A stretch of 64,000 bases of DNA from Oscillospiraceae bacterium (GTDB lineage Bacteria; Bacillota; Clostridia; Oscillospirales; CAG-272): positions 21,930-85,929 of the forward strand of contig SVQX01000003.1 of assembly GCA_015065065.1 (NCBI GenBank). The letters run 5' to 3'. A program made the translations under genes and the position numbers. The notes beneath the pieces are model-generated. The model was not told the origin of the DNA. It saw only the letters and a list, made by a program, of their open reading frames with translations, and ran no database searches. Of this stretch, positions 33,901 to 59,280 are shown piece after piece (position 1 is the first letter of the stretch; each line of letters opens with the position of its first letter).

Positions 33901-35808
33901 GTTCTCCATTGACAAAACACTGCGATAAAATTCCAAAAGCTCGTCATCGACAGCCTCATCATACGAATACTTCTTTCCACCCTCGGCATCCGCCGAGGCT
34001 TTTTTATTCTCCGCCTCCGCGCCGCTCTTTTGCTTCTGCCCCAGCGAATACGCCGCATCAACTACCTTTTGTGGCAGGCGGGAAACGTAGTTATCCTTGT
34101 AAGCGTACGCCTTGTCCGCCCCGCTCCGCCCGTATATCGTGGCAATAGCAAACGCCGTGGCGTAATCCTCGGCTCTCATTCCCTTAACGGGATAGTAGGT
34201 ACTGATAACGGTGTCCTTTATGTCCTCGGACAGCTTCGTACCGTTCAGAGCACGCCGCAGAGTGGCAAGGTCAGCGGCTTTATTTTCCCATTTTTGCTCG
34301 TTTCTCTGCTCTGCGGTCAAATTCCCGTCCGTACCCGCCTTCGCGCCCTGTGCGGCATTCTCGCCCGTCTGTGTGCCCTTCACAGCGCGTCGGATATCCT
34401 TCGCCACCTGCTTGCCTTCTTTATAAGCTCCTACGCGCGCCGTGTTCTTTTGGCGCGCCGTTCTCATGTCCTCGCTTACCTTCTCGGCAACGAGCAAGCC
34501 CGCCGCCTGAGAAAGCATACCGTCGCGGTCAGCGCGCAGATCCTCGACACTGTATTCCTTGCCCGTCTGCTCGCGCACGTACTCCGCGATCTTGGTAAGC
34601 TGTGCGTCATCCGCCGAAAGCTCGGATACCTTTGCTTCAATCTCCGCATTTATCTGCGCGTACAGCATGTTGATCTGCATCTCGCCAAGCACCGCGTGGC
34701 CCGCACTGCTCGATCTTTGCGCCTCGCTCATGCCGTCCCACGCCGCAATGTTAGCCGCAAGCGCCTCTGCAAACTGCGCCGAGCGCTTGGCGTCCTTTTT
34801 CATCTGATGACGGGCGCGGGCTTGGAATATAGCATTCTCGTTCGCGAATTCCTTCGCCGTTGTTTCCGCCTCTGTCTGTATGCCGGAGAGATAGGAGGCA
34901 ACGCCGCGCGCCGAGCTTACCACTCTGTCGGTCTTGCCCGCGCGCTCAATGCTCGCGCCGCGCCGCTCGTTGGTCTTGTAGTTTACCGCCGCACCGGGCG
35001 CGCTCATAAGTCCGCCCGACACAGCACCCACAGCGCCGCTGTAAAATATATCGCCGAAAGACGCTGCCTCTGCCTCCGGGTCAACGCCACTGATGCGCTG
35101 AAGGAGAGGATCGATAGCAGTGGATGTCGCCTCCTCGGCAAATTCGCCCGCCGCTCCCTTTCCTATCTCCTTGAGCGTGGTCTTAACAAGCCCCTTCGCG
35201 CCCGTCTTTGCCACAGCCTCCGACGTTTCCTTGACGGCAGTCTTGCCAAGCAGCTTGGAAAGACTCTTGACAGCAGTGCCGCCAACGCCGCCCGTCACAG
35301 CCTCAAGACCGAATTCCACGCCGCCCGAAGCCGCGCCGTATAGGAGCTCATTCCAGCCCACCTTACCCGTTTTCGCTGCCGCAGAGCTGATACCCTGCCC
35401 CACAACGCCCGTGGCAAACAGCGGAACTCCCGCGTAAGGTATGAGCAAGACGGAGGAATCACCGATACCGCCGCCAACGTCGCCCATAAATTGCATAAAG
35501 CCGTCGGGGTTGTACCATTCATCAAGCCCCTGCGACAGCTGCGCCGTCTTGTTGTCAAGGAATCGGTACTGCGCCATGTCCGTGTTCCCCGTTACAAGGT
35601 CACCCGTGGCTGCAAGGATGTCACCCACACCCTCGAATATTCCCATAGCGCCAAGCACCGTTTTTCCGCCGACGTAGCCCACGCCCTCAAACAGTCCGCC
35701 CGTGTTCTTTTCTTTTTCAATAAGGCTGACCTTCCGATTTCTCGCCTTTACCGACTCCGCGTACAGCTTGGAGGGACGGTTGGGGTTAAAATATTTGATA
35801 CCGCTCAT
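27910..35808 (-). CDS. giant (2632 aa) polyvalent-type virion/ejection protein
   Basis: Gly-rich hydrophobic N-terminus. PBECR-type nuclease-like motif GGAIQHIEDRHGKNGD. HExxH metallopeptidase motif YTLSHEVTHYVKAW. MuF-C/LPD-like segment AHAVPYDFFAKLPKLLDSAPMII...IKSAYPWDDF. Long coiled coils. Confidence 0.7.
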   Translation of the reverse strand: MSGIKYFNPNRPSKLYAESVKARNRKVSLIEKEKNTGGLFEGVGYVGGKTVLGAMGIFEGVGDILAATGDLVTGNTDMAQYRFLDNKTAQLSQGLDEWYNPDGFMQFMGDVGGGIGDSSVLLIPYAGVPLFATGVVGQGISSAAAKTGKVGWNELLYGAASGGVEFGLEAVTGGVGGTAVKSLSKLLGKTAVKETSEAVAKTGAKGLVKTTLKEIGKGAAGEFAEEATSTAIDPLLQRISGVDPEAEAASFGDIFYSGAVGAVSGGLMSAPGAAVNYKTNERRGASIERAGKTDRVVSSARGVASYLSGIQTEAETTAKEFANENAIFQARARHQMKKDAKRSAQFAEALAANIAAWDGMSEAQRSSSAGHAVLGEMQINMLYAQINAEIEAKVSELSADDAQLTKIAEYVREQTGKEYSVEDLRADRDGMLSQAAGLLVAEKVSEDMRTARQKNTARVGAYKEGKQVAKDIRRAVKGTQTGENAAQGAKAGTDGNLTAEQRNEQKWENKAADLATLRRALNGTKLSEDIKDTVISTYYPVKGMRAEDYATAFAIATIYGRSGADKAYAYKDNYVSRLPQKVVDAAYSLGQKQKSGAEAENKKASADAEGGKKYSYDEAVDDELLEFYRSVLSMENKSILSKRKKKLGRISEKHARLIEKVIKKETGKTIDVSGYDLYIDGGAIQHIEDRHGKNGDADQSMKDPRDVARIGWAANNAESAHIAREDDGSVDYDTQYKNSDQSPSPKVMLEKEIGDSKMIVVECVPDSSAKRIYIVSARIEKGSNGQVLNMQSEDRPQPTSKTLRDGIATINSIPHTDGSVNTSDEKSFRRSSREGRVIRAEGVNMQKLSDRQYSAYKAAEIMARALGTDIVIHADLGQTKNGKAVNGYFDEKTGQIHVNINAMRDGEHIALYTLSHEVTHYVKAWSGEKYAALAEFVFERLADGQSRTPVPTVESLIDAKVEALRAAGLLPKGATEVQARELAREEVVCDGMELILADGEVLGKLAARDKTLWEKIKDVVLRVVDLVKAAYATLSGTSKTAQVLSDTMDSLDNIKQLFYEAVTEAGDARRSGKDADVTGIRYSIKQTQKIDWDKQLQAVEQKSINGSNSLYIGEIISLSQMFSNLPFAMNQSDYRKPRRTAGNNKNYSAHAVPYDFFAKLPKLLDSAPMIIDGAEKATVITSYPMNDTNGKASYVIVGVHKKQNMENDIVNQIKSAYPWDDFADRLVKAAEQGMLVIINKNKAEQMLATIGIQPSEVSRIVDLAKDIVTYSDSKVNTPSKKFSVDDANTGIEPFTSMDEYAVEGEILPEKPATDREILSGALEGAVRSKGEYNALKEYREQLTELDAVVEKRKTLKKAHAEVVKRINELKGIKKRMFEEPSPDANGTDMVTTEAESDSWIDAEIVELKKAKDEIKRQIDDADSMITEQDKKLLKLQATKPIRELIQHAKKQAANKTRQRDAEKLQRTKESYEKRLFKVKEREERRVYKAKAKYKKMYDDRQLGKDTTAARNSLRKEIDRLNSMLFVPNKKWHIPPEMQRAVAEALSSTNMDTVGVQNIAKINAEIERLTQRANKGADVSKALNEQLEKREKWERKAAGIQEQMTFLSQLYAQITASGSDTVQGMFDEEISGMLSEHRRVVGDTPIADMTLVQLRSAKEFYNAILTRVGTANQLFLDGKQAELDAFVEDTIEEVEKSKKPAFMKPKPNEVGVLSSVRKYIWKALKPVYAFEIFGSDSMMSIFWSLQRGEGVWAKDCADAEKKFKSVAEKHHYWDWDFESKREFEVANGKKVKLTLGEILSLYALINRPPAYHHLTNGGFAFHSETVEKGKWGEERVKNDFERYRLDDKTAEEITRALSDEQRAFADDMIEYLSVVMGEKGNEVSVQLYGAALFGDKHYFPMEVLDTQVNSQTGRTGDSKITNKSMTKQIAIDPEERATNTLVLRDFMEVWTRHVNDMSLYHGMALATENLSKILNYRRSAELNKDTGEWSGTPYKDDLPSYSFKDSINKEYGPEAIKYIEQLLRDLNGGVRSGTPTNAIDKGISLFKKSAVMASWSTIIQQPTSICRAWELIDAKYFVNTGYNPQKSRELWEELKEYAPVAIVKEMGGFDTGVGQATGDYIMEREYSLKEKPMAFIKDKNYRDRVFGYGAAKADQLAWLGLWEACKKEQTDLHKELSPDSEELLTLAGERFTEAVVRTQVYDSTLSRSEMMRSKDTGWKMAMSFMAEPTTMVNMLVGASVKLQRGDVKTFRRSVGCIAGSLILNAILASLVYAARDDDEEKNYGEKYLESLTSEITDAFNPLTVLPYVKDIWSLAQGYDVERTDIAVFADLIQSVQDMSSSEKTWAQKSMNLGANVGTFFGLPTRNLYRDARGIYNVLTNADGDGNTAVGYKYAFATGAAGIVPLKKFFGVDADISNGQQLYNAIISGDKAHYNRVLKRFDSEVKLNNALRTALRDNDERIRDAAQARVDGDISTYSKLVREVMAEGFFDEKTVKAAVNAEYNDIMKDIESGAEDNKDEESTQVASSIYNSSMLNSELDRGDFKEAKVILDDLVASRVAIGKTEKAARSAVRSSVTSYWKKKYLAAREAKDAAELKRIRSLLTRSGLYGDSNDVLKVTEKWFEDYRDSKKTSK

Positions 35809-41374: not shown

Positions 41375-41432
41375 GATTTTCGCCGCATCGAAAATCCTCC
41401 TCACTTTTTCACTATTACTTCTTACCTCTCAC
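41375..41432 (+). repeat. hairpin-plus-heptad element, family 1, variant hairpin
   Basis: GATTTTCG-CCGCAT-CGAAAATC, followed by CTCCTCAC TTTTTCAC TATTAC TTCTTAC CTCTCAC. Confidence 0.75.
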
Positions 41433-41437
41433 CTCGA

Positions 41438-42337
41438 TCACGTAAACGTGATCTGCTCCCCTCGCTCTGCTCTGCGGATGTATTCATTGATCTGCTCCAT
41501 GGACAGCTTGGAGGGATCTACCTTTACGCTGGACGGTACATTCGCCCTTGCTCCGCTCTCTGACGGACGCATGCCGTTTTGACGCACACGGTTTGCCACC
41601 GCGTCCTCGCCCTTCTTGGATGCGTACTTCATAGCCGCGGGAACAAGAGTGTCCCTATGTGCGATCTCGTAGGCGTCGCGCATGCTGTAGCCGATATCAA
41701 GCAGATTTTTAAACCGCTCACCCTCAAGCTCGGTGCGCAAGTCGAAATTCTTGTAGATCGCCTTGACGCTCTTTGCTTCCTCCAGAAGCGCCGCATACTC
41801 TGCCGCCGCCGTCGCCTCCGCCTCGGCGCGCTCGCGCGCGGCCGCCTGCGTTCTGAGCGACTCCATTTCATTTATGGTTTCAAGAGGAACGCCCGTCTCG
41901 TCAGCGCGCGCTTGGTTGTAGGTATTATCGGCATTAAAAGCCTTCAGAAGTGCCTCCGTATCCCCGGCCTTGACGCCGTAGCGCGTCGCAAGCTTGTCAA
42001 GGATGGGAAGCGCCGCTTCGTAGGATTTTGCCTTTTGCCCGAGGGTACGGGTGCGCCCCGTTACCGCCTTTTTCACACGCGCGTCATAAAGGTCCTTGTA
42101 ATCGCCCTTGATAAGCCGCTCAAACTCCGCCTCACGGTCGGGAGTCCCGGCTTGTCCGGCTTCAGCGTCAGCACCGACGTTATCGGTACCGCTGTCCGTG
42201 TTGTTTGTCAGCCCGGCGTCGGCTGCCTCTGCCCCCGCAGGAGCATTTCCGCCCGTTGCACCGCCAGCGACCGCCGCTCCATCCGCAAAGAACTGGAGGC
42301 CGAGCCTGACGGGCATTTTAAAAGTAGTATCGAACAT
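41438..42337 (-). CDS. scaffolding protein
   Basis: Ala/Glu-rich helical protein between the portal/Prp genes and the capsid gene. The N-terminus carries LGLQFFA. Confidence 0.65.
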   Translation of the reverse strand: MFDTTFKMPVRLGLQFFADGAAVAGGATGGNAPAGAEAADAGLTNNTDSGTDNVGADAEAGQAGTPDREAEFERLIKGDYKDLYDARVKKAVTGRTRTLGQKAKSYEAALPILDKLATRYGVKAGDTEALLKAFNADNTYNQARADETGVPLETINEMESLRTQAAARERAEAEATAAAEYAALLEEAKSVKAIYKNFDLRTELEGERFKNLLDIGYSMRDAYEIAHRDTLVPAAMKYASKKGEDAVANRVRQNGMRPSESGARANVPSSVKVDPSKLSMEQINEYIRRAERGEQITFT

Positions 42338-42435
42338 TTACGTTCCTTTCTTTCCCCGTCCTCAGACGGAGAAGCAGCCCGTTACGTGGGCGAGCCGTAT
42401 TTTTTATAAGCACCGAGTATTCCTCGGGACTATAC

Positions 42436-42501
42436 GTAAAGTAAAAAGTAATAGTGAAAAGTGAATAGGTGATGTGGATTTCCGCCACGGCGGAAATCCA
42501 C
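42436..42501 (-). repeat. hairpin-plus-heptad element, family 1 (inverted orientation)
   Basis: GTAAAAA GTAATA GTGAAAA GTGAATA, then a 12-bp-stem hairpin GTGGATTTCCGC-CACG-GCGGAAATCCAC at 42474-42501. Confidence 0.85.
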
Positions 42502-42503
42502 CT

Positions 42504-42623
42504 GCACACGCTTCGCGTGGTGCGACTCTCAACTCTCAACTCTCAACTACCAACTATCAACTCTCAGCTACCAACTATCAACTACCAACTATCAACTCTC
42601 AACTACCAACTCTCAACTCTCAA
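42504..42623 (+). repeat. hairpin GCACACGC-TTC-GCGTGGTGC followed by 14 phased 7-nt repeats (CTNNCAA)
   Basis: Units from 42526: CTCTCAA x6, CTACCAA x4, CTATCAA x3 and CTCTCAG x1, with no phase break. Confidence 0.9.
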
Positions 42624-42944
42624 CTTGACATGCTCCGCCACGTCCCGCGCCAGCACCGAGTACCCCGTCATTATCACCTCAGCATATTCCGTAAGCCTGT
42701 GCCACGCCACACCGTCCAAGGCAACCGCTCGCAGGTGCGCCTCCCCGTCCTGAATGTGATACTGCACCTTCACGCCGTAGCCGCAGTCATCAAGCGCCGC
42801 AAAGCTCTGTGCCGCCGTGTAAAACAAGGTGGAAATGCCGGCACACACAATGTCAGAGCCTAAATTTGCAAAGCCCGCGTGACCGAATATGTCGATCGTA
42901 AATATCATTCGCGCATCGTCTGCGCGTATCTCAATATTCGTCAT
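42603..42944 (-). CDS. prp: Prp-family cysteine protease (ribosomal L27-processing type), phage-encoded
   Basis: FGHAGFANLGSDIVCAGISTL matches the GHA...D.VCA.VS His/Cys signature of Prp (DUF464). The last 7 codons and the stop lie inside the heptad array. Confidence 0.75.
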   Translation of the reverse strand: MTNIEIRADDARMIFTIDIFGHAGFANLGSDIVCAGISTLFYTAAQSFAALDDCGYGVKVQYHIQDGEAHLRAVALDGVAWHRLTEYAEVIMTGYSVLARDVAEHVKLRVESW

Positions 42945-44900: not shown

Positions 44901-44914
44901 ATTTATAAATTCTC

Positions 44915-44967
44915 CTTTCAACTTTCAATTTTCAATTCACTTTCAACTCTCAACTATCAACTCTCAA
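44915..44967 (+). repeat. heptad tract without an adjacent hairpin
   Basis: CTTTCAA CTTTCAA TTTTCAA (TTCA) CTTTCAA CTCTCAA CTATCAA CTCTCAA. Confidence 0.8.
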
Positions 44968-45236
44968 CTCCGCATTATCTCCACCCTCGCTCTGCCCGGA
45001 GGCGTTGTGAGATCCTCGCGCCTGATGTTCAGCGCGTCGAATATCCTTCCCTCAAGGGGACCGCGTCGCGCCGCATTCATCCTGGGCGCTATCGGTCGCA
45101 TCATGCAGAAATACCGTGCTTCGTCGGCACAGTTATGCGCGACCACGCCGCCCTGTATGACAAAATCATGTGTATCCGCTACTTCCATGTTGTATACGTC
45201 ACGCTCTCCAACGTAGCTTACCGACTTAACTTTCAT
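44964..45236 (-). CDS. terL: terminase large subunit, C-terminal fragment: 35-aa C-intein plus C-extein
   Basis: MKVKSVSYVGERDVYNMEVADTHDFVIQGGVVAHN|CADEARYFCMM. This shows the canonical intein block G (VAHN followed by Cys+1) and the terminase DxxRY-type motif. Confidence 0.8.
   Translation of the reverse strand: MKVKSVSYVGERDVYNMEVADTHDFVIQGGVVAHNCADEARYFCMMRPIAPRMNAARRGPLEGRIFDALNIRREDLTTPPGRARVEIMRS
45132..45236 (-). other. split-intein C-half (IntC, 35 aa)
   Basis: Same length class and sequence pattern as DnaE-type IntC. The Cys+1 codon lies at 45129-45131. Confidence 0.75.
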
Positions 45237-45738
45237 TCAGCTCCTCCTTTATCCTGTTGCGGCGAAACGAAGCACGGCAGTTCTGATGACAAAAACGGTT
45301 CGCGCCTTCAACGTATACATGCCGTGTTTGAAACGACTTTCCGCAAAAGGTGCATACATATTCACGTAGCGGAGCCTTTTCCCAATATTCTTTTGCGTGC
45401 GCTCCATGCCACGCCGCACCCTCTACGCTCCCATGCCACGCAGAAGCATATTTGAGTGCCTTTTTAATGTCACGTCGGCTTTGTTCAACACGTTCGGGGG
45501 ATTTCATATGTTTTCGCTGATGCTCTTTACCTTGCATCATGCACAGATTAGATATGGAATTGTTATGCCTATCGCCGTCTATATGGTGGATATCAAATCC
45601 CTTTGGAATACTGCCATTGTGGTATTCCCACACCGCTCGATGCAGTCTTTTGCCTTTGCGTTGAAAATAAGCTCCGCACAGGTAAAACATTTCTCCGTTA
45701 AATTCCTGTTTGGTATTGCTTATCACGTTTACCTGCAT
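45226..45738 (-). CDS. free-standing HNH homing-endonuclease-like gene between the intein halves
   Basis: ATG 45738 follows GGAGGTG. Motif HRAVWEYHNGSIPKGFDIHHIDGDRHNNSISNL (HNH), plus a C-terminal CxxC...CxxxC. It overlaps both flanking ORFs by about 10 nt. Confidence 0.8.
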   Translation of the reverse strand: MQVNVISNTKQEFNGEMFYLCGAYFQRKGKRLHRAVWEYHNGSIPKGFDIHHIDGDRHNNSISNLCMMQGKEHQRKHMKSPERVEQSRRDIKKALKYASAWHGSVEGAAWHGAHAKEYWEKAPLREYVCTFCGKSFQTRHVYVEGANRFCHQNCRASFRRNRIKEELNES

Positions 45739-47312
45739 ATCCGCACCTCCGTTTTGTTGGGTAGCATATCTTTTATTCGTACCCACGTTCCGTCCTCTCT
45801 CATTATCCGGTGATCTTCTGTGCCCTCAAAAACTGTTCCATCCTCAAGCTCTACACGATATACCTTGGCTTTTCTTCTCGTCATACGAACGTCAGAAAAA
45901 CGGTGATATTCGCCATCATGCGATAATACCAATCCTTCCTTCCCCACCAAGCGTTCAATCGGTACATAGCCTTCATCAGTACGAATGAGCGTATCCCCAA
46001 CAAGACAGTGGTCCTCGCCCGAGGAATCCACGTCCTCCACACGCACGTCGTCAAACTGAAGCGCGGGCAGGGTGCGGATGAAGTCGCGGCAGTTATTGAA
46101 TACGTACATCTGCGCAAAGCCCTCCTCGTCAAAGCTGAGGCGGTAATGCAGCTGCATCCAGCCGGGTATGCGCTCGTGATCTCCCTTGTTAAAGTAAACG
46201 CGCCGAGACGCGGCAACCTCCGCTATTGACGGGCCGCCGTTCTGCGCCCAGATAGCGGGATCGGCAACACCGATTATCTGTTTACCCTTTAGCCACCTGT
46301 GTTCCCTCTCGGTACGCGCTATCTCCTCAAATATCCGTTCGTTGTTCCACTTAACACCCGTGTCGGGACTGCTCTCCTTGCAACCGTAAAGCTCAAGGAT
46401 GCGGTACGCCACACCCTGATAATCCACAGCCCACCAGCCACAGGAGAAGGGCTTGGCATATCCCCAGTCGAAGCTACGGTATATGTTCCAACCGTCCGGA
46501 ATATCGAAAGGCTTGATAACGTGCGTCCACCGTCTGTCCTCGTAGTGGGCGGGATCGTTTTTCCATTCTGCGAATACCTGCCCCGTGTAGCTGTCCCAAT
46601 TTCCGTAAAGCAGAGCCTCGCGCTCTGCCTCGGGCATTGACGCAAGCCTTGTAATGTACTCGGGATTTGCATCAAGCAACGCCTTGTTGTCAAATACGCT
46701 GGCAGGGATAAATATGCGGGAGAGCCGTCCAACCACTCGCTTGCCCTCGGGGGTAACGTACTCGTGATCCGTCCACATTGTAGTCATTGGCGGCGCGGGA
46801 GTAATGAATCTGTCCTTTACCCATCCGTGACCGACTCCTCCGGGGTTTGCGGATGCGCGGATATAGCACCGCGTGCCGGGACCGTTTGGACGGTTACGGG
46901 ATATCAGATAGATGTATTCCTCAAGTGTAAAATGTGTCAGCTCGTCAAAGGCGATATAGTCGTAAGCGCGACCTTGGTATTTGAGCTTGTCCTGAGTGCG
47001 GTGCAGATCTCCGAAAATGACCTTCGCACCGCTCGGAAAGGTCCACGAATGCTTTGCCTCGTTGTACTTTGCCTTCGGATATATCAGCGGATAGTAGTTC
47101 TGACTTTTGCCGATAAGCTCCTCAAGCTCAGGGTACGTCTTACGGAGAAGCAGCCCCTTGTAGTGCGGTATGTCTACCTGACGGAGGGCTTCAAGCACCA
47201 AAGCCTCCGACTTTCCGCCCCCCGCCGCTCCGCCGTAAAGCGCTTCATATTCCGCCCGCGCCATAAATGCCGCCTGCCTCGGCTGCGGCGACCAAACCAC
47301 GTTCTTACCCAT
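45729..47312 (-). CDS. terL: terminase large subunit, N-terminal fragment: N-extein plus 92-aa N-intein
   Basis: ATG 47312 follows AAGGAGG. Walker A LYGGAAGGGKSEAL and Walker B YDYIAFDELTHF. The intein starts at GEDH|CLVGDTLIRTDEG (Cys1 codon 46005-46007), with an in-frame stop 92 aa later. Confidence 0.85.
   Translation of the reverse strand: MGKNVVWSPQPRQAAFMARAEYEALYGGAAGGGKSEALVLEALRQVDIPHYKGLLLRKTYPELEELIGKSQNYYPLIYPKAKYNEAKHSWTFPSGAKVIFGDLHRTQDKLKYQGRAYDYIAFDELTHFTLEEYIYLISRNRPNGPGTRCYIRASANPGGVGHGWVKDRFITPAPPMTTMWTDHEYVTPEGKRVVGRLSRIFIPASVFDNKALLDANPEYITRLASMPEAEREALLYGNWDSYTGQVFAEWKNDPAHYEDRRWTHVIKPFDIPDGWNIYRSFDWGYAKPFSCGWWAVDYQGVAYRILELYGCKESSPDTGVKWNNERIFEEIARTEREHRWLKGKQIIGVADPAIWAQNGGPSIAEVAASRRVYFNKGDHERIPGWMQLHYRLSFDEEGFAQMYVFNNCRDFIRTLPALQFDDVRVEDVDSSGEDHCLVGDTLIRTDEGYVPIERLVGKEGLVLSHDGEYHRFSDVRMTRRKAKVYRVELEDGTVFEGTEDHRIMREDGTWVRIKDMLPNKTEVRICR
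45732..46007 (-). other. split-intein N-half (IntN, 92 aa)
   Basis: Block A CLVGDTLI and a block-B-like GTEDHRI. It ends at a stop codon, not at an endonuclease domain. Confidence 0.75.
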
Positions 47313-47341
47313 GCATTCCTCCTTAATGAATAATTGACGTG

Positions 47342-47400
47342 GATTTCCGCCACAGCGGAAATCGTCCTTCACTATTCACTTTTCACTCTTCACTCTTCAC
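47342..47400 (+). repeat. hairpin-plus-heptad element, family 1
   Basis: GATTTCCGC-CACA-GCGGAAATC, then CCTTCAC TATTCAC TTTTCAC TCTTCAC TCTTCAC. The terS stop (47390-47392) lies inside the heptads. Confidence 0.85.
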
Positions 47401-48116: not shown

Positions 48117-48338
48117 TTAATCACCAGGATACTTCTCCTTGAGCGCCCAAAATAGCCCGCAGTCCCAATACCGCGCGCAACAATACGTCCGCGTAAACCG
48201 TTCTAACTCCGCGCGCGACGAAAAGACGAGGTGGGTAGAGCATTTTTCGCACACTCCCTCGCATTTTAACTTTTTTTCCTTCGGCAAAGCCTTCTTGTAG
48301 AACGGACAGCGCACGTCGGCATCAATGTAATTACTCAT
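48117..48338 (-). CDS. small Cys-rich protein (73 aa)
   Basis: ATG 48338 overlaps the upstream stop (ATGA). MSNYIDADVRCPFYKK...CEGVCEKC. Confidence 0.5.
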   Translation of the reverse strand: MSNYIDADVRCPFYKKALPKEKKLKCEGVCEKCSTHLVFSSRAELERFTRTYCCARYWDCGLFWALKEKYPGD

Positions 48339-49255
48339 CACACCACCTCCGCGTACCGCTCGCGCATCCGCCTCAGCTCCGCTGCCTCCGACCGGCGGCG
48401 CTTTGCCTCCCGCCGCCCGGGATCGGTGTCGCGGCGGTATAGCTTGATATGTATAACCCACTCACGGAATTGCTCAATGTAGATCGCCTCCGCCTCGGAC
48501 ATATAATATCCTGGATAGCGGGACTCCACGGGCGCATATCGCTCCTCTGTGGTCTCTACTCCCTTTCCAACTCCCGCATTGATATCCTCAATAGCACGCG
48601 CCAGCTCATCCGTCGCCTCGGCGGAAATACCGGCGTTAAGCTCAGCATACCCGGTGCGCTCCAAATTGCGCGAGCCATACCAGCGATGCTCACCGTTAAT
48701 GCGCCCCTGCTTTGTAAGATAAGCGGAAAGCGCCTCAAATCCGTTGCTGCTTGCCTGAAGCGTGCGCACGTTAACAATATCAGCCATCCCCCACAGCTCG
48801 CGGATGCGGGACTCCGAGAGCCCGCCCGTCATAAGAAGGTGAGGATGCATTCGCTTACCGTCGCCACCTTCGATAACGTAGAGATATTTGAACTCGCGCA
48901 CCGCCTCAAATGCATTGTTGGAAAGAATATTGAGGGCAACGTGCGCCCTCTTTACACGTCGAAGGAAATTGCGCATCAGAAGGCGCACCTCCGCTCTGGT
49001 GGCGGGATAGTGTGCCTCATCAAAGGTAAGCGTTATGTATAAGTCGCGTCCGTCCTCAAAATTCGCGTTGACGATACGGTTCAGATTCATAATGGCGTTG
49101 CGCTCATTCACGCGCGCCTGTGCCTCACTCGTAGCCTTACCGAGAGCGCGGGGCTGACGTCGCTTGCCCTTTACTCGGTAAAGCAACGTGTCGCAGAACC
49201 CAAGCCCCATATTGTACGACGTCTCCCGTGTATATCTTATATCACCGTTTGCCAT
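48338..49255 (-). CDS. HUH-type rolling-circle Rep-like protein
   Basis: Three motifs in canonical order: LYITLTF (motif I), MHPHLLM (HUH-like) and SAYLTKQ (YxxK). Confidence 0.55.
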   Translation of the reverse strand: MANGDIRYTRETSYNMGLGFCDTLLYRVKGKRRQPRALGKATSEAQARVNERNAIMNLNRIVNANFEDGRDLYITLTFDEAHYPATRAEVRLLMRNFLRRVKRAHVALNILSNNAFEAVREFKYLYVIEGGDGKRMHPHLLMTGGLSESRIRELWGMADIVNVRTLQASSNGFEALSAYLTKQGRINGEHRWYGSRNLERTGYAELNAGISAEATDELARAIEDINAGVGKGVETTEERYAPVESRYPGYYMSEAEAIYIEQFREWVIHIKLYRRDTDPGRREAKRRRSEAAELRRMRERYAEVV

Positions 49256-49549
49256 ATTTTCTCCTCTTTTTTATTTTCCGCGCAGGCGGATATATGGGGC
49301 GCCGCCCCACACCCCGCAAGCCTTTCTTTCGAGAAAGGCTTGACCGAAAGAACTTGCCCGCAAATTATTTTTGTCTAAATTTGTTTACGATGGTTACAAC
49401 CGCAACCATCTCTATAACCCCCGTGGGACCCTCTCCCACCGGGCTATTTAATTTTCAATTTTCAATTCGCATAATATGTATCGCGTGTGCGCGCACCGCC
49501 GCCCGCGCCCGCCGCTCTGCACGTTTGTAACATTCCCACCGACCGCGCG

Positions 49550-51210: not shown

Positions 51211-51441
51211 TTACTCCTTTTCTCTTTTCAAAAGCTGATCTATTTTCTTGTTCGTGGGCTCAACGAATTTTTCCACAATACCCTGCTCCTCGTTCAGCCG
51301 CTGCCATTCCCGCTCCCGCTTCCAGAACGGCGCCCGATCGACAGTATGGCAAGTCTTAATGCAAACAGACACCGTAGCAGCACTCCACATCCCGTCACAG
51401 GCGCGCTCATTACACCACTTTTTAAATTGTCTGTAGGTCAT
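51211..51441 (-). CDS. phage early hypothetical protein (76 aa)
   Basis: ORF whose start overlaps the stop of the upstream ORF by 4 nt. Confidence 0.45.
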   Translation of the reverse strand: MTYRQFKKWCNERACDGMWSAATVSVCIKTCHTVDRAPFWKREREWQRLNEEQGIVEKFVEPTNKKIDQLLKREKE

Positions 51442-51821
51442 ACAGTGTCCTCCGTATATTTCTTTTCAAGCTTTGCAAAATCGGCAGGATCTATGCACCA
51501 AAACGGCTCTTTTTCAATTTCAACCATTCCTTCGCGTACAACGGGAAAAACGTGCATTTTTGCGAGATCCTTAAGCTCCTCGAAAATTCGTTCCGCGACA
51601 TTGGTCTGCTTGCGGTAGCCCAACTGCGTTATAATATACCGTGCGATACTCGTTTCTTCATCTTCGTATGCATTTCCTGACAAACGGCTTAATACATCAA
51701 ACCCTATTTTCTCGTTGTCAAGTTTTCTAATTCGCAGGGAGTGCGCCATTTCTTCGATTTCTTCTTCCGTAATTTTCAATTTGGGCACCACGCTTGGCGT
51801 GGTGCGATTTTCAATTTTCAC
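51438..51821 (-). CDS. phage early protein whose first ~18 codons are encoded by a hairpin repeat
   Basis: GTG 51821 overlaps the stop of the upstream micro-ORF (GTGA). N-terminus MKIENRTTPSVVPKLKITE. Confidence 0.5.
   Translation of the reverse strand: MKIENRTTPSVVPKLKITEEEIEEMAHSLRIRKLDNEKIGFDVLSRLSGNAYEDEETSIARYIITQLGYRKQTNVAERIFEELKDLAKMHVFPVVREGMVEIEKEPFWCIDPADFAKLEKKYTEDTV
51765..51820 (+). repeat. 56-bp repeat, copy 1: hairpin GCACCACGC-TTG-GCGTGGTGC flanked by AATTTTC-type heptads
   Basis: Near-identical to 52518-52573. Confidence 0.9.
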
Positions 51822-51958: not shown

Positions 51959-52260
51959 CACCCCTCACCGCCTTTCAACGCCTCGTAGGTTTTTTCAAAT
52001 ATATCGGGCTTGCAAGGATAAAATTCACCTTTGACACCTTTGATGATATAATCTCCGATTGAAGCAAGATGTTCACCCTCAAGAGTTTTTATAATTAAAC
52101 CGCCTTTTATTTTATCGTGGTCAATATAAAAATTTTCTCCCGAACTTGACATAAACTCATTTGTTAATTCATAGTTAGTTAAAAAATCAAACATTTCTCG
52201 ATGATTTTCACCATTCCATTGAATAGCATCAATCACAACAGGTTTCTTTCTGTATTTCAT
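51958..52260 (-). CDS. phage hypothetical protein (100 aa)
   Basis: MKYRKKPVVIDAIQWNG, a common small phage protein N-terminus. Confidence 0.55.
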   Translation of the reverse strand: MKYRKKPVVIDAIQWNGENHREMFDFLTNYELTNEFMSSSGENFYIDHDKIKGGLIIKTLEGEHLASIGDYIIKGVKGEFYPCKPDIFEKTYEALKGGEG

Positions 52261-52574
52261 TCCTCCGCACCGCCTTTCTCGGTTGGGAGGTCAGTCCAAT
52301 CAAGAGCCTGTCCGCATCTGCAATGATGGTCATTAGGAAATAAACTTCTATGGCAAGTCGGACAATGCTCTTTTTCGTAAACACCGTTGTCATTGTCAAG
52401 ATACGGCTTTTTTGAAATCTGTTTTTCAAGCGCCTCAACAGCCATATCTAATGCTTCGCACAAAATTATGTATCCGCTTGTAGGTTTGTTACACTTTATT
52501 GCGTTGATAGCTTCCGCTTCCGTAATTTTCAATTTGGGCACCACGCTTGGCGTGGTGCGATTTTCCATTTTCAT
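52257..52574 (-). CDS. zinc-ribbon-like phage protein whose N-terminus is encoded by the hairpin repeat
   Basis: ATG 52574 overlaps the upstream stop (ATGA). N-terminus MKMENRTTPSVVPKLKITE. Cys motif CPTCH...CRCG. Confidence 0.55.
   Translation of the reverse strand: MKMENRTTPSVVPKLKITEAEAINAIKCNKPTSGYIILCEALDMAVEALEKQISKKPYLDNDNGVYEKEHCPTCHRSLFPNDHHCRCGQALDWTDLPTEKGGAEE
52518..52573 (+). repeat. 56-bp repeat, copy 2
   Basis: See 51765-51820. Confidence 0.9.
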
Positions 52575-52819: not shown

Positions 52820-52839
52820 ATTTTATCCTTCCCGATGGA

Positions 52840-52901
52840 GATTTCCGCCGCACAGGCGGAAATCATCCACCACTTTTCACTTTTCACTATTAACTATTAA
52901 C
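52840..52901 (+). repeat. hairpin-plus-heptad element, family 1
   Basis: GATTTCCGCC-GCACA-GGCGGAAATC, then TTTTCAC TTTTCAC TATTAAC TATTAAC. Confidence 0.85.
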
Positions 52902-52907
52902 TCTCTC

Positions 52908-53888
52908 TCATATCTGCCAGCCCGCATCGTTAACGATACGGAGGAGTGTTGACTCGCAGCGGGCGCGGAGCTTCTGACCGCTGCCGCTCTCTGCGGCGTC
53001 CATAGCCTTAATTTCTGCATTTATATCCGCAATGGCGCGGCGTATAGCTTCAAGGCTATAGGATACCTTCGCCGCGTGAGGATCGGCGGCAAGCGTCGCC
53101 TGACGGAGCTTCAAGGCGGCGGTGCGCTCCTGCTCTGCCATCTGCTCGCGGAGCTTGTCAAGCTCCCCTGCCGACTCCTTCTGCGCCTTTTGAAGTGCCT
53201 TGGCGTGCTTTTCGTTGAGCTTGTCCACCTCGGCACGGTGAGAAGCCGCAAGCGCCTCCTCCGCCTCTGCGCGTATGGCGTTGATCTGCTCGTCGGAGGG
53301 CTGATTTACTACCACCGTAACCTCCTGCGGCGCGGCGGCGGGCAGAGCACGAAGCTGCTCCAGCTCGTAATAGCTATCCTGCGCAGCCTTTTTAGCACAA
53401 GCCAGCTCGCGGTCGCGCTCCTCAAGCTGCTCCTTAAGATATTTACGATCCTCCGCCACGTCCTGCAAAGCGTCAAGCTCCTCACGTTGGGACTTGATAA
53501 GCTCGCGCATATCGCGGATGGACATATCCCCGCTCTCAAGCTGTTCACGGTGCTCCTCTACAAACTCCGCGCGTTGCGGCTTGGGGAGTGCAAAAAGCTC
53601 CACAAGCTGGGACTGCGAGAGTCCCTCAAAGATTTCCGCATCCGATCTGCCCGTCAGCATATCTATCTGCTCCGAGCCGTACTCTCTGTATATTCGCATA
53701 AGATTTCCCGCAGTGCTCTCGGAATACTCGAAGTTATCCTCAAGCCAAGTGCCCCACTCACCGTGAGGCACAAGCGCCTTTGCCTCCTCCAGCCGTTTTC
53801 CTATCTCAAAGCATGAGCGCTTTGCCATCGAAAAAGCGGCATTCAGTATTCCCGCCGTCTGAGATCTTATGGCGTTTATCTCCTCCAC
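52908..53888 (-). CDS. DUF3102-family protein
   Basis: EIGKRLEEAKALVPHGEWGTWLEDNFEYSESTAGNLMRIY, followed by a long coiled coil. Confidence 0.7.
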   Translation of the reverse strand: MEEINAIRSQTAGILNAAFSMAKRSCFEIGKRLEEAKALVPHGEWGTWLEDNFEYSESTAGNLMRIYREYGSEQIDMLTGRSDAEIFEGLSQSQLVELFALPKPQRAEFVEEHREQLESGDMSIRDMRELIKSQREELDALQDVAEDRKYLKEQLEERDRELACAKKAAQDSYYELEQLRALPAAAPQEVTVVVNQPSDEQINAIRAEAEEALAASHRAEVDKLNEKHAKALQKAQKESAGELDKLREQMAEQERTAALKLRQATLAADPHAAKVSYSLEAIRRAIADINAEIKAMDAAESGSGQKLRARCESTLLRIVNDAGWQI

Positions 53889-57764: not shown

Positions 57765-58019
57765 TTACTTTAAGAGCTCCTGCTCCGTCGCAGCCCTGAG
57801 TGATATCGCCTCAAACTCCGGCTTTCCGCTCGCCGCCATGCATTCAAAGGTGTCAGGACACTCCATTGTGCCGCGTTTTTTGCAAATACGGCAGGCGCGC
57901 TCGTAAACCAAGCGCCGATATCTTTTCCTTTTCTGCCGCGTCGTTATTCCGTCAATCAGCAACGCCACCGCTCCCAGCACCGCAAAAGCAGCCGCTATGT
58001 AAATAAGCTCAGGCAACAT
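57765..58019 (-). CDS. small TM plus Cys-rich protein
   Basis: ATG 58019 (MLPELIYIAAAFAVLGAVALL), CRICKK...C...C. Confidence 0.45.
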   Translation of the reverse strand: MLPELIYIAAAFAVLGAVALLIDGITTRQKRKRYRRLVYERACRICKKRGTMECPDTFECMAASGKPEFEAISLRAATEQELLK

Positions 58020-58033
58020 TACCTTCCCCTTCC

Positions 58034-58366
58034 TCACATTCCGATTTTTTTCGTAATAGGATTATAGAATCCCACAAACTCACCGTCCGAGAATATAGCG
58101 ATACGGTTGTCCGCAGGCAGTACCACCTGTATCTTGCCCCACAGACCGCTATCCGAGATCTCCCGCTCCACCGCCGCGCGCTGACCGTTAAGCAGTCTCA
58201 ACGTGTACTCGTCGATCTTACCGCGTAATACGGTGGCTGCCGTGCCCTTGTTAAGGGGATTGAGCGCCGTCGAAAGCTGCGTCGCGCTGCATCCAATCCC
58301 CGCCGCTACCTCAGCACTTGAAAGCCCCAGCGCCGCAATTCTGATGTTGTACTCCTGTTTTGTCAT
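58034..58366 (-). CDS. Cro/antirepressor-like HTH protein; first gene of the leftward early operon
   Basis: LGLSSAEVAAGIGCSATQLSTAL. Confidence 0.55.
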   Translation of the reverse strand: MTKQEYNIRIAALGLSSAEVAAGIGCSATQLSTALNPLNKGTAATVLRGKIDEYTLRLLNGQRAAVEREISDSGLWGKIQVVLPADNRIAIFSDGEFVGFYNPITKKIGM

Positions 58367-58381
58367 TTTTTGTCTCCTTTC

Positions 58382-58410
58382 TTGACAAACCTATATTTTT
58401 GTGTTAGAAT
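58382..58410 (+). promoter_or_regulatory. near-consensus promoter pointing rightward, away from the cro-like gene
   Basis: TTGACA, a 17-nt spacer ending in TGT, then TAGAAT. Confidence 0.55.
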
Positions 58411-59231: not shown

Positions 59232-59280
59232 TTTCTCTCCCTTTCCCTACATTAAATTTTCGGAGGTGTCTCAATCAATT

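What the first reader, a model, noticed from the sequence alone, without database searches (positions are those of the whole stretch)
42436..42630. Composite intergenic element: reverse heptads, two GC hairpins, then 14 perfectly phased 7-nt repeats built from three alternating unit types
The element reads, in order, as follows. First GTAAAAA GTAATA GTGAAAA GTGAATA. Then a 12-bp-stem hairpin GTGGATTTCCGC-CACG-GCGGAAATCCAC. Then a hairpin GCACACGC-TTC-GCGTGGTGC. Then CTCTCAA x3, CTACCAA, CTATCAA, CTCTCAG, CTACCAA, CTATCAA, CTACCAA, CTATCAA, CTCTCAA, CTACCAA and CTCTCAA x2 (42526-42623). The period is 7 nt, so it is neither codon-phased nor helical. The Prp gene ends inside the array (KLRVESW-stop). 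Only positions 3-4 of the unit vary (CT, AC, AT), and the variant order is patterned rather than random. I know of no described phage element with this architecture. Possible roles are a protein-binding array, an RNA processing or stability element that segments the late transcript, or a slippage-prone selfish repeat.
Basis: seen in the sequence. Interest (0 to 1): 0.72.

Follow-up and report, generated by a model that had tools for sequence, protein, structure and literature searches.

The report
Phage intergenic heptad-repeat and hairpin mosaic
The odd spacer between two head genes of this gut-bacterium prophage is real, but it is a fast-changing patchwork of a 7-base microsatellite, two small hairpins that recur elsewhere in the phage, and a 32-base piece identical to host DNA, so it is one example of the widespread but still unexplained bacterial habit of piling up 7-base repeats between genes.

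Summary
There are 14 exact-phase heptads (42526-42623), two GC hairpins (42474-42501 and 42504-42523) and a short opposite-strand heptad run (42436-42469) between Prp and the scaffold gene. The spacer is identical in nine independent contigs. It is not unique. The prophage has heptad runs at six or more junctions, four copies of the hairpin-1 cassette and three of hairpin 2. Related phages carry arrays of their own unit flavour. Period 7 far outnumbers other periods, and published surveys already call intergenic heptamer repeats the commonest prokaryotic tandem repeat, function unknown. Close relatives with conserved flanks have only three heptads at this junction, followed by no hairpins or by different ones, so about 160 nt is a recent, dispensable insertion or expansion. 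The "reverse heptads" match the host smpB-tmRNA spacer exactly over 32 nt. No ribbon-helix-helix (RHH), HutP or TRAP reader, Rfam family or canonical terminator was found. Best reading (about 0.45): a labile mosaic built by slippage and cassette duplication or recombination, acting at most as RNA-level intercistronic punctuation. Rivals are an omega-like DNA-binding array, a period-7 XAG RNA-binder site and a captured promoter part. It is a new variant of a known kind, of moderate interest.

The parts
42526..42623 (-). 14-unit heptanucleotide array. The sense strand reads TTGAGAG / TTGGTAG / TTGATAG / CTGAGAG. It overlaps the last 7 codons and the stop of Prp.
   Evidence: Close relatives have only 3 units here.
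42603..42944 (-). Prp-like cysteine protease gene (Peptidase_Prp). Its C-terminal residues KLRVESW are encoded by the heptads.
   Evidence: (PF04327).
42504..42523 (.). Hairpin 2 (sense strand TCGCACCACGCGAAGCGTGTGC), a member of a 3-copy family in this prophage.
42474..42501 (.). Hairpin 1, a perfect 12-bp stem with a 4-nt loop, and a member of a 4-copy cassette family in this prophage. It is also present in an unrelated phage (L005) and in relatives L324 and L326.
42439..42470 (-). It is 100% identical to the host smpB-tmRNA intergenic spacer and in the same orientation relative to the downstream gene.
42338..42438 (-). Conserved 3' part of the spacer, present in all relatives. It contains a -10-like TATAGT/TATAAC, the small hairpin CCGAGGAATACTCGG, an A-rich stretch, two further small hairpins and the Shine-Dalgarno (SD) sequence GAAAGAAAGGAAC before the scaffold ATG.
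41438..42337 (-). Scaffold protein gene, directly downstream of the element.
41375..41435 (-). Older hairpin-1-family cassette at the scaffold|MCP (major capsid protein) junction. It has degenerate heptads GAGGTGA GAGGTAA GAAGTAA TAGTGAA AAAGTGA followed by GATTTTCG-ATGCGG-CGAAAATC.
   Evidence: It is absent in relative L325.
44912..44970 (-). Heptad array without a hairpin between the TerL stop and the portal SD/ATG (TTGAGAG TTGATAG TTGAGAG TTGAAAG ... TTGAAAGGAG).
47336..47400 (-). Hairpin-1 cassette at the HTH(TerS-like)|TerL junction: GTGAAGA x2, GTGAAAA, GTGAATA, GTGAAG, then GATTTCCGC-TGTG-GCGGAAATC.
49444..49468 (-). Short array GAATTGA AAATTGA AAATTAA ATAG followed by a GC hairpin, upstream of the HUH Rep-like gene.
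51767..51821 (-). Hairpin-2 cassette (TGAAAAT x2, then CGCACCACGCCAAGCGTGGTGC, then CCAAAT TGAAAAT) forming the first 19 codons of ORF 51438-51821.
52520..52574 (-). Second hairpin-2 cassette, forming the first 19 codons of ORF 52257-52574.
52834..52909 (-). Hairpin-1 cassette at the DUF3102|DUF3850 junction: TTAATAG x2 and TGAAAAG x2, then GATTTCCGCC-TGTGC-GGCGGAAATC.

Best explanation
The element is a recently assembled, dispensable mosaic that sits in a permissive intercistronic gap of a prophage late operon in an Oscillospiraceae/Ruminococcaceae host. Shown: a short heptad run that overlaps the Prp stop codon in all relatives has expanded from 3 to 14 units, with nested 7-, 14- and 21-nt duplications of the kind expected from replication slippage. 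Next to it lie one copy each of two small GC-hairpin repeat families that are duplicated at other gene junctions of the same phage. The hairpin-1 cassette is inverted here and carries a 32-nt block identical to the host smpB-tmRNA spacer. Inferred: the pieces spread by illegitimate or short-homology recombination between intergenic cassettes, in a REP/MITE-like or PeSL-like way. Any function is modulatory and acts on the late mRNA. The sense-strand heptads each carry a stop triplet, so every reading frame closes within three units and the stretch stays purine-rich and unstructured. The stable hairpins, optionally extended by G.U pairing of the 5' heptads with the 3' inverted heptads, would mark a boundary between the low-copy portal/Prp message and the high-copy scaffold/capsid message. 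They could do this as barriers to exonucleases or as processing sites, the way REP hairpins and Firmicute 5' stabilisers work.
For: Labile and dispensable: relative L324 (Prp 78% identical, flanks about 90-95% identical) has only TTGAAAA x3 and no hairpins. L325 and L326 have 3 heptads plus two unrelated hairpins. The 3' spacer is conserved in all of them. A second cassette at the scaffold|MCP junction is present in the window, L324 and L326 but deleted in L325.

Repeat families: hairpin 1 occurs four times and hairpin 2 three times in the prophage, and the cassettes are homologous over about 65 nt including the last heptads. One copy is in an unrelated phage from the same samples.

Structural constraint on hairpin 1: one stem pair goes C-G to C.A to T-A across copies, and the fold is very stable.

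Host-identical 32-mer with breakpoints at the cassette edges.

Slippage signature: strong lag-14 signal and a duplicated E-A-G block.

Class behaviour: period 7 dominates in 160 unselected relatives (25 arrays against 0-10 for other periods; 50 against 17 or fewer). Only about 15 loci are positive, each with 2-9 arrays of a lineage-specific unit. No protein co-varies with arrays.

RNA-level hints: unpaired arrays in this phage group are sense-oriented 9:0. Arrays begin at the upstream stop codon. The sense RNA folds the 5' heptads onto the 3' inverted heptads around both hairpins (-97 kcal/mol, z = -3.1).

The literature treats heptamer satellites as local replication errors of unknown function.
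Against: No transcript data exist, so the RNA role is inference only. The hairpins lack U-tracts and are not called as terminators, although the host uses canonical terminators. The antisense strand folds with an equal z-score, so the sense/antisense energy gap is largely compositional. Across the broad viral set arrays show no strand bias relative to genes, and there is no general tendency for a hairpin to lie 3' of an array. Pure slippage does not explain why 7 is favoured over 5, 8, 10 or 11, nor why neighbouring arrays are convergent 29:6. The spacer is invariant in nine contigs, so hypermutability is not directly seen, although these contigs may come from one population.
Confidence: 0.45

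Rival explanations
1. It is a DNA-level protein-binding array. A small cooperative DNA binder, such as a ribbon-helix-helix (RHH) protein like omega/ParB of pSM19035 or a stoperator-type repressor, coats contiguous 7-bp units at several phage junctions. It would silence or insulate late transcription, or act as a centromere.
For: Omega binds 7-10 contiguous non-palindromic 7-bp repeats (WATCACW) in either orientation at six sites per plasmid. The window's GTGAAWA units differ from the reverse complement WGTGATW at one position, and some viral arrays read GATCACT. The phage has multiple sites, units are lineage-specific, and variation is confined to 2 of 7 positions. Neighbouring arrays are convergent, and there is no strand bias in the broad set.
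Against: No RHH, omega, ParG, Arc or MetJ family was found among 53 distinct window ORFs scanned with Pfam, ten of them (eight small, previously unassigned ORFs among them) also with PHROGs, and no ParA was found. No protein co-occurs with array-positive lineages. One phage carries at least five different unit flavours (TTGAKAG, GTGAARA, TTAATAG, TTGAAAA, GAGGTAA), which is hard to reconcile with one specific reader. A close relative replaces the units and shrinks the array to 3. The prophage is integrated in the chromosome, so it has no need for a centromere.
Confidence: 0.15
2. It is an RNA-binding-protein switch. A ring-shaped protein that reads XAG triplets every 7 nt, like HutP, binds the sense-strand array and remodels the adjacent GC-rich hairpins. 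This would control read-through or translation of the scaffold/capsid genes.
For: HutP recognises A and G of XAG motifs separated by 4-nt spacers, in two XAG-rich sites flanking a stable GC-rich stem. Every sense-strand array in the window, whatever its unit flavour, keeps 'AG' in phase at period 7. There are five such runs, all on the sense strand, against 1.8 expected on both strands. The array abuts two GC-rich stems. Solo arrays in this phage group are sense-biased 9:0.
Against: No HutP or TRAP family hit in any scanned ORF. The hairpins are not terminators. There are 14-15 motifs where HutP uses 3 + 3. The nearest relative has UUGAAAA units with no XAG at the same junction. TTGACAA-type arrays in relatives lack AG. 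There is no XAG site on the 3' side of the stems.
Confidence: 0.1
3. It is a neutral or selfish repeat with no function. The array and cassettes persist only because this gap tolerates insertions.
For: The same indel and turnover evidence as the main explanation. The literature view is that long simple-sequence repeats with 5-11-bp units reflect a tendency to expand (own knowledge: Mrazek 2007) and that heptamer satellites arise from duplication errors. No reader was found, and arrays decay with age, as in the degenerate 41.4-kb cassette.
Against: The marked specificity for period 7. The convergent-pair bias of 29:6. The sense bias in this phage group. The compensatory change in the hairpin-1 stem. 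Recurrence at equivalent junctions, before the portal gene and after portal/Prp, in lineages with different units.
Confidence: 0.2
4. It is a captured promoter part. The 32-nt host-identical block supplies the upstream (-35/UP) half of an internal promoter that, together with the conserved -10-like TATAGT, boosts scaffold and capsid transcription.
For: The block is identical to the sequence just upstream of the host tmRNA gene and lies in the same orientation relative to the downstream, highly expressed gene. The consensus scan reports TTCACT-18-TATAGT at 42458-42429 on the minus strand. A TATAAC/TATAGT hexamer is conserved at that position in all relatives, whereas the upstream part varies.
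Against: The match is only 9 of 12 with a weak -35, and 22 such sites occur in 12 kb against 10 expected. The likely host ssrA -35 (TTGATA, overlapping the smpB stop) is not part of the copied block. Relatives manage without the block.
Confidence: 0.07
5. It is a recombination or replication site. Either the 32-mer is an attP core for integration at smpB-ssrA, with contig L333 as attL, or hairpin 1 plus the heptads is an origin or nick site for the phage HUH Rep-like protein, or a pac site.
For: L333 joins host smpB to window position 42470 exactly. The phage encodes an HUH Rep-like protein, and an unrelated phage has three cassettes upstream of its rep gene. Hairpin 1 has 11-6-11 geometry.
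Against: L333 is a k = 31 assembly and the shared block is 32 nt. All k = 141 assemblies keep Prp-element-scaffold contiguous and no attR form was found. The window prophage lies beside tRNA-Glu and EamA, not at ssrA, and no integrase was found. There are four hairpin-1 copies per genome, and the hairpin loops differ between copies (CGTG, TGTG, TGTGC, TAT), unlike HUH nick sites. Rep does not co-occur with arrays.
Confidence: 0.03

Closest known systems
Intergenic heptamer (7-bp) tandem repeats of prokaryotic genomes (Mori et al., SPADE, PMC6344855; Subirana & Messeguer, PMC6749651; from my own knowledge also the cyanobacterial STRR heptamers and Mrazek's LSSR5-11 class)
   Same: Period exactly 7, intergenic location, many loci per genome, lineage-specific unit, no known function, and an apparent origin by local duplication or slippage. 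Some viral arrays found here (AATGACC) are rotations of the STRR2 unit as I recall it.
   Different: Here the arrays lie in a phage late operon, start at the stop codon of the upstream gene, are sense-biased in this phage group, and are joined to genome-specific hairpin families and a host-derived block. The surveys I read do not describe that composite.
Omega (RHH ParB/repressor) heptad operators and parS sites of inc18 plasmid pSM19035 (PMC9499535)
   Same: Contiguous 7-bp non-palindromic units, 7-10 or more per site, direct and inverted orientations, several sites per replicon, a Firmicute host, and a unit core resembling GTGA/TCAC.
   Different: No RHH or ParA gene was found. The units are heterogeneous within one genome. 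The arrays lie between structural genes and do not overlap promoters of regulatory genes. The array is not conserved in close relatives.
REP/BIME-type extragenic palindromes (own knowledge)
   Same: Short GC-rich palindromes repeated at intergenic sites just after stop codons, in either orientation, with presence or absence varying between relatives. They are known to act as mRNA 3'-end stabilisers and attenuators.
   Different: Only 3-4 copies per family, confined to a prophage. They are flanked by heptad arrays, and no RAYT-type transposase is present; the phage HUH protein matches a Rep family and is not a Y1 transposase.
PeSL mobile regulatory cassettes of T4-type phages (PMC2839356, PMC4122927)
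   Same: Small repeated intergenic cassettes containing a stem-loop. Indels and replacements between close phages map to them, and they are proposed to mediate modular shuffling.
   Different: PeSLs are a strong sigma-70 promoter plus a functional terminator in early hyperplastic regions. Here there is no clear promoter or U-tract terminator, the cassettes lie in the late operon, and they have a heptad component.
HutP binding sites in the Bacillus subtilis hut terminator (PMC2425495)
   Same: XAG triplets at 7-nt period on the mRNA, immediately 5' of a stable GC-rich stem.
   Different: HutP uses 3 + 3 motifs flanking a true terminator. Here there are 14-15 motifs on one side only, no terminator, and no HutP homologue was detected.
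TTTTGAT heptad repeats upstream of ctxAB in the CTX prophage (papers found; details from my own knowledge)
   Same: A phage-borne tandem 7-bp array in an intergenic regulatory region, with copy number varying between strains.
   Different: It is a single promoter-proximal site bound by ToxR/H-NS, not multiple inter-cistronic arrays with hairpins.

Membership tests
Prokaryotic intergenic heptamer tandem repeats (SSR/STRR-like) | Head-to-tail repeats of a 7-bp unit, 4 or more copies | tested here: met
   14.4 copies, TRF score 118; only lags 7 and 14 are significant.
Prokaryotic intergenic heptamer tandem repeats (SSR/STRR-like) | Located outside coding sequence, at several loci per genome | tested here: met
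   Six or more junctions between 41.4 and 52.9 kb, and none in 26 kb of flanking host DNA. The array overlaps only the last 7 codons of Prp.
Prokaryotic intergenic heptamer tandem repeats (SSR/STRR-like) | Copy number varies between related genomes (slippage dynamics) | tested here: met
   3 units in L324, L325 and L326 against 14 in the window. Identical among nine contigs of the same strain.
Omega-type RHH heptad operator / parS | Contiguous 7-bp units, 4 or more, in direct and/or inverted orientation | tested here: met
Omega-type RHH heptad operator / parS | Cognate ribbon-helix-helix protein (and a ParA) encoded on the same replicon | tested here: not met
   No RHH, omega, ParG or ParA hit among the 53 window ORFs scanned (46 of them prophage ORFs) with Pfam and PHROGs. 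Very small or divergent RHH proteins could be missed.
Omega-type RHH heptad operator / parS | Unit consensus WATCACW, uniform within the replicon | tested here: not met
   Units are CTMTCAA, TTTTCAC/TATTCAC, CTATTAA and others. The best match is 6 of 7, and there are five or more flavours in one phage.
Omega-type RHH heptad operator / parS | Arrays overlap promoters of the regulated genes | tested here: inconclusive
   Only weak consensus promoter matches inside or next to the arrays.
REP/BIME-like extragenic palindromes | Imperfect GC-rich palindrome of 20-40 nt repeated at intergenic sites in both orientations | tested here: met
   Hairpin 1 x4 (one inverted) and hairpin 2 x3.
REP/BIME-like extragenic palindromes | High copy number across the host chromosome and an associated RAYT (Y1 HUH) transposase | tested here: not met
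   No copies in 26 kb of host DNA in the window or in host contigs L337 and L339. The only HUH protein matches REP_ORF2-G2P. The whole host genome could not be scanned.
PeSL-type phage regulatory cassette | Strong sigma-70 promoter followed by a stem-loop terminator | tested here: not met
   No U-tract after either hairpin, and only 9-of-12 promoter matches.
PeSL-type phage regulatory cassette | Indels and replacements between close phages map to the cassettes | tested here: met
HutP-type XAG-N4 RNA operator | Three or more XAG triplets spaced by 4 nt on the sense RNA next to a GC-rich stem | tested here: met
   15 in-phase AG on the sense strand abutting hairpins 2 and 1.
HutP-type XAG-N4 RNA operator | HutP-family protein present, a second XAG site 3' of the stem, and the stem is an intrinsic terminator | tested here: not met
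   No HutP hit. The 3' flank is pyrimidine-rich without XAG. No terminator call. A host HutP could not be searched for.
Rfam RNA families | Match to any curated covariance model | tested here: not met
   No hit at E <= 1 over 39-54 kb on either strand.
Phage attP core | Identity block shared with a host locus | tested here: met
   32/32 nt identical to the smpB-tmRNA spacer.
Phage attP core | Adjacent integrase, both attL and attR junctions observed, and the prophage located at that host locus | tested here: not met
   No integrase found. Only an attL-like k = 31 contig exists. The prophage lies next to tRNA-Glu and EamA.

The most novel reading that the evidence does not exclude
Heptad arrays are not junk. 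In this reading, arrays built on an N-A-G-T-K-R-R grammar with a stop triplet in every unit, typically converging on a central core, form a widespread and so far unrecognised class of phage intercistronic control elements. They would be read by a conserved machine with a 7-nt footprint, such as a ring-shaped XAG-binding protein, the ribosome or an RNase on RNA, or an omega-like filament on DNA. That would explain the 'prime-number periodicity' of prokaryotic intergenic repeats that surveys have flagged as unexplained.
Probability: 0.12. Interest if true: 0.8.

Novelty: new variant of a known kind. Interest (0 to 1): 0.5.

Why it matters
Intergenic 7-bp tandem repeats are reported as the commonest tandem repeat between prokaryotic genes, yet nobody knows why the period is 7 or what they do. 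This prophage and its relatives offer an unusually clean natural series at one gene junction: 3 units, 3 units plus alternative hairpins, and 14 units plus two hairpins plus a host-derived block, all with conserved flanks. They also show regularities that pure slippage does not predict, namely strong specificity for period 7, convergent pairs and a sense bias in this phage group. If a function exists, this series shows exactly which constructs to compare. If not, it documents how quickly phage intercistronic spacers are rebuilt from microsatellites, small palindromes and host DNA. It also shows how a 32-nt phage-host repeat can generate chimeric contigs in k = 31 assemblies.

Tried and rejected
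- Assembly artefact: rejected. The spacer is identical in nine independent contigs.
- Known RNA family: none at E <= 1.
- Intrinsic terminators: neither hairpin is followed by a U-tract.
- Phage-encoded reader: 53 distinct window ORFs were scanned with Pfam, ten of them also with PHROGs. No RHH, HutP or TRAP was found.
- Co-occurrence of any window protein with array-positive relatives: none. Clustering the ORFs of 57 array-rich contigs gave no common family.
- HUH Rep origin: the loops are not conserved and Rep does not track arrays.
- General 'array then hairpin' polarity: tested on 345 arrays and not supported. The upstream flank is, if anything, more structured.
- General sense-strand bias: absent in the broad viral set (125:126 and 47:51). 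Those gene calls are crude, and the bias is present where the direction is known (9:0).
- attP at smpB-ssrA: rejected as the main reading. L333 is best explained as a k = 31 chimera through the 32-nt repeat.
- Closer relatives by capsid protein in metagenome contigs: only 30-59% identical hits, not useful.
- The 32-mer in viral contigs: no match.
- The phage record collection has no close relative.
Full report
**1. The observation**

The described sequence is present. Coordinates are on the + strand.
- Short heptad run: GTAAA GTAAAAA GTAATA GTGAAAA GTGAATA GG at 42436-42469.
- Hairpin 1 (hp1): a perfect 12-bp stem with a 4-nt loop, GTGGATTTCCGC-CACG-GCGGAAATCCAC, at 42474-42501.
- Hairpin 2 (hp2): an imperfect hairpin, GCACACGC-TTC-GCGTGGTGC, at 42504-42523.

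TRF scores the array at period 7, 14.4 copies, score 118. A lag scan of the whole window finds signal only at periods 7 and 14. hp1 is very stable as RNA (-21.2 kcal/mol, z = -5.6), and hp2 is modest (-10.1 kcal/mol, z = -1.6).

The surrounding genes are on the minus strand: portal, a Prp-like protease (42603-42944), the element, then the scaffold gene (41438-42337) and the major capsid protein (MCP) gene. Read on the sense strand the array is TTGAGAG/TTGGTAG/TTGATAG, and Prp ends inside it (...KLRVESW-stop). The unit order shows nested 14- and 21-nt duplications.

The 293-nt spacer is exactly identical in nine distinct ENA and JGI contigs. It is therefore not an assembly artefact.

**2. It is not a one-off within this prophage**

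The hp1 core GATTTCCGC...GCGGAAATC occurs three times in the window, whereas about one 9-mer match is expected by chance. A diverged fourth copy lies at the scaffold|MCP junction (41375-41435). Each copy is preceded by purine-rich heptads. The cassettes align over about 65 nt, including the last two or three heptads. Three copies are sense-oriented: HTH|TerL at 47336-47400, DUF3102|DUF3850 at 52834-52909, and scaffold|MCP. The copy in the finding is inverted.

hp2 has two near-identical copies flanked by TGAAAAT heptads (51767-51821 and 52520-52574). Each forms the first 19 codons of a small ORF.

Further arrays without these hairpins lie between TerL and the portal gene (44912-44970) and upstream of an HUH Rep-like gene (49444-49468).

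At a relaxed threshold, heptad runs occur at six junctions between 41.4 and 52.9 kb and nowhere in 26 kb of flanking host DNA. The finding is therefore best described as two array-plus-hairpin cassettes facing each other: (TTGAKAG)14 + hp2 on the sense strand, and (GTRAAWA)4-5 + hp1 on the other strand.

**3. It is not a one-off among phages**

I scanned 160 loci encoding portal relatives (43-58% identity, not selected for repeats). Period-7 arrays far outnumber every other period from 4 to 13: 25 against 0-10 at a strict threshold, and 50 against 17 or fewer at a relaxed one.

Only about 15 loci are positive. Each has 2-9 arrays of a lineage-specific unit (TTGACAR, GAGTGAG, GAGTGRA, GAGTTGA). 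Arrays often lie at equivalent junctions, before the portal gene and after portal/Prp. Some lineages have their own conserved sequence following the arrays: GGTGTCGCCGRCGCGACGRATT in L142 and GTTTTGGAATGGTCTGA in L146.

Pattern scans of viral contigs found 23 stretches with (TTGRNAG)5 and at least 119 with (GTGRRNA)4.7. Many of these contigs carry up to 20 arrays and come from clearly different phage types.

Published surveys already state that tandem heptamer repeats are the most abundant intergenic repeat across prokaryotes, with 'no clear clue' to function (PMC6344855). They also state that heptamer-derived satellites probably arise as duplication errors (PMC6749651).

**4. Evolution of this particular junction**

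Three intermediate relatives were recovered through Prp and scaffold homologues.
- L324 (Prp 78% identical; flanks about 90-95% identical): TTGAAAA x3 and nothing else before the conserved 3' spacer. The gap is 106 nt against 265 nt in the window.
- L325 and L326: TTGAAAA TTGATAG TTGAGAG, followed by two different hairpins (GGGGAGCAT...ATGCTCCC and GGCGGAT...ATCCGCC).
- Window: 14 heptads, hp2, hp1 and the inverted heptads.

A three-unit run overlapping the Prp stop codon is therefore ancestral, and everything from about 42439 to 42602 is a lineage-specific expansion or insertion.

At the scaffold|MCP junction the hp1-like cassette is present in the window, L324 and L326 but is cleanly absent in L325. 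One hp1 stem pair runs C-G (window copies at 42, 47 and 52 kb), C.A (L324) and T-A (window 41 kb copy, L326). This is a compensatory path that argues for selection on pairing.

**5. A host-derived piece**

One k = 31 Logan contig (L333) joins the host PHP and smpB genes to window position 42470, and is then 100% identical to the phage for 1,999 nt. Host contigs carrying the same smpB are an NCBI Ruminococcaceae MAG (GCA_015064735.1) and several k = 141 metagenome contigs. They show smpB-TGA-T-ACCTATTCACTTTTCACTATTACTTTTTACTT-CAAACTAT-tmRNA.

It lies in the same orientation relative to the downstream gene.

Four facts bear on whether this is an attachment site:
- Every k = 141 assembly keeps Prp-element-scaffold contiguous.
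- No attR form was seen.
- The window prophage lies beside tRNA-Met, tRNA-Glu and a host EamA gene.
- No integrase was found.

I therefore read L333 as a chimera through a genuine 32-nt phage-host repeat, not as an attachment junction. The block is absent from the viral contig collection.

**6. Tests of mechanism**

*Known RNA families and terminators.* Rfam gives no hit. Neither hairpin has a U-tract, while the host tmRNA gene has a canonical terminator.

*Reader protein.* No RHH, omega, ParG, HutP or TRAP family was found among 53 distinct window ORFs scanned with Pfam, ten of which (eight small, previously unassigned ORFs among them) were also run against PHROGs. No window protein co-occurs with array-positive relatives. 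Array-rich contigs share no common family.

*RNA folding.* The sense RNA folds so that the 5' heptads pair, with G.U wobbles, onto the 3' inverted heptads around both hairpins (-97 kcal/mol, z = -3.1). The antisense strand has an equal z-score.

*Orientation.* In the portal-relative set, where transcription direction is known, unpaired arrays are purine-rich on the sense strand 9:0 (p = 0.004). In the broad viral set, with crude gene calls, there is no bias (125:126 and 47:51).

*Pair geometry.* Neighbouring opposite-strand arrays are convergent, with the stop-bearing units first on both strands, 29:6.

*Stop triplets.* Runs of in-phase stop triplets are about 20-fold commoner at period 7 than at periods 4, 5, 8, 10, 11 or 13. 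That set is partly selected for heptads.

*Hairpin polarity.* A general 'array then hairpin' polarity is not supported.

*Shared invariant.* All sense arrays of the window keep 'AG' in phase at period 7. This echoes HutP's XAG-N4 sites next to a GC-rich stem (PMC2425495). However, the nearest relative has UUGAAAA units without AG.

**7. Interpretation**

Shown:
- The element is a mosaic of an expanded microsatellite, two members of small intragenomic hairpin families, and a host-identical 32-mer.
- It is dispensable and turns over quickly.
- It belongs to a widespread period-7 phenomenon.

Inferred, at about 0.45: it was built by slippage and cassette recombination. If it acts at all, it acts as RNA-level punctuation between the low-copy portal/Prp message and the high-copy scaffold/capsid message.

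Rivals:

| Reading | Confidence |
|---|---|
| Functionless repeat | 0.20 |
| Omega-like DNA-binding array (PMC9499535) | 0.15 |
| HutP-like RNA operator | 0.10 |
| Captured promoter part, TTCACT-18-TATAGT | 0.07 |
| Recombination or origin site | 0.03 |

The specificity for period 7, the convergent geometry and the local sense bias remain unexplained by slippage alone. They are what keeps the more novel reading alive.

**8. Verdict**

The feature is real and accurately described. The claim that it is unique is wrong. It is a new variant of known kinds: intergenic heptamer repeats combined with REP/PeSL-like cassettes. Interest is moderate (0.5). It matters mainly as a clean natural series for attacking the open 'why seven?' question, but it sits in an uncultured host, and no mechanism has been demonstrated.

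Noticed in passing
L333/L338 (Logan SRR7032251 contig) compared with window 42439-42470 and host contigs L337, L339-L341: A k = 31 assembly joins host smpB directly to the phage scaffold gene through a 32-nt exact repeat shared by the phage spacer and the host smpB-tmRNA spacer. It is probably a chimeric contig, and is a caution for using Logan contigs at short repeats.
   Followed up: yes
window 44964-47372 (minus strand): The large terminase is split. An N-terminal ORF (Terminase_6N) is followed by an HNH_3 endonuclease ORF (45226-45786), then a 90-aa ORF whose start looks like an intein C-terminus (...VVAHNC) before the TerL C-terminal residues. The three are in different frames, suggesting an intein or intron with a homing endonuclease, possibly degenerate.
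   Followed up: partly
window 51438-51821 and 52257-52574 (minus strand): Two small ORFs share an identical 17-residue stretch at positions 3-19 of their N-termini (residues 1-19 differ only at position 3; MK[I/M]ENRTTPSVVPKLKITE). It is encoded by the hairpin-2 cassette, and similarity drops sharply beyond it. Either a repeat cassette has been recruited as coding sequence, or the true starts lie downstream.
   Followed up: partly
window 48338-49255 (minus strand); L005 1300-2980: The prophage encodes an HUH Rep-like protein (PF23343 REP_ORF2-G2P). An unrelated phage from the same samples has a 26%-identical homologue (motif RYHHHIF) preceded by three heptad-hairpin-heptad elements within 700 bp, one of which has the same hairpin-1 core.
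   Followed up: partly
window 20134-21516 and 58000-63000: The prophage's left end abuts tRNA-Met, tRNA-Glu and a host EamA transporter gene. No integrase was detected in any scanned ORF. A LexA/CI-like HTH-S24 repressor (60604-61500) and an Mrr-like nuclease (61516-62931) lie at the right side. The mode of integration is unclear.
   Followed up: partly
window 61705-61901: A perfect 87-bp tandem repeat (2.3 copies, 100% identical) lies inside the N-terminal part of the Mrr-like ORF.
   Followed up: no
window 27910-35808 (minus strand): A giant 2632-aa ORF lies in the tail region. The homologue in relative L325 (3081 aa) carries ART-PolyVal and LPD3 Pfam marks, i.e. a polyvalent-protein-like toxin or anti-defence module.
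   Followed up: no
L273, L276, L225, L238, L203, L212, L290-L311 (viral contigs): A family of about 16 related contigs of a different phage type (DnaA-C-like HTH, glucosaminidase, Bacteroidota-style GGGGCGATTTGCAAATCGCCC palindromes) carries up to 20 heptad arrays per 15 kb or less, with several unit types per genome (CAGTGAA, AATGATT, CATTGAA, GAAGAAC).
   Followed up: partly
L275, L266, L274 (viral contigs): Some arrays use units I recall as cyanobacterial STRR-like (AATGACC, the reverse-complement rotation of TTGGTCA) or near-omega units (CAGTGATCAGTGATC, reverse complement GATCACT). The taxonomic origin of these contigs was not determined.
   Followed up: no
L325 position 1 (Logan SRR24653666 contig end): The 21-kb contig of a close relative ends about 100 nt upstream of Prp, at the portal 3' end, although another relative (L326) has no array there. 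This is possibly a coverage or repeat break.
   Followed up: no
window 26930-26972: A perfect 18-bp tandem repeat (2.4 copies) lies inside the BppU-like baseplate/tail ORF 26180-27865. It is in frame (period 18) and probably encodes a short peptide repeat.
   Followed up: no
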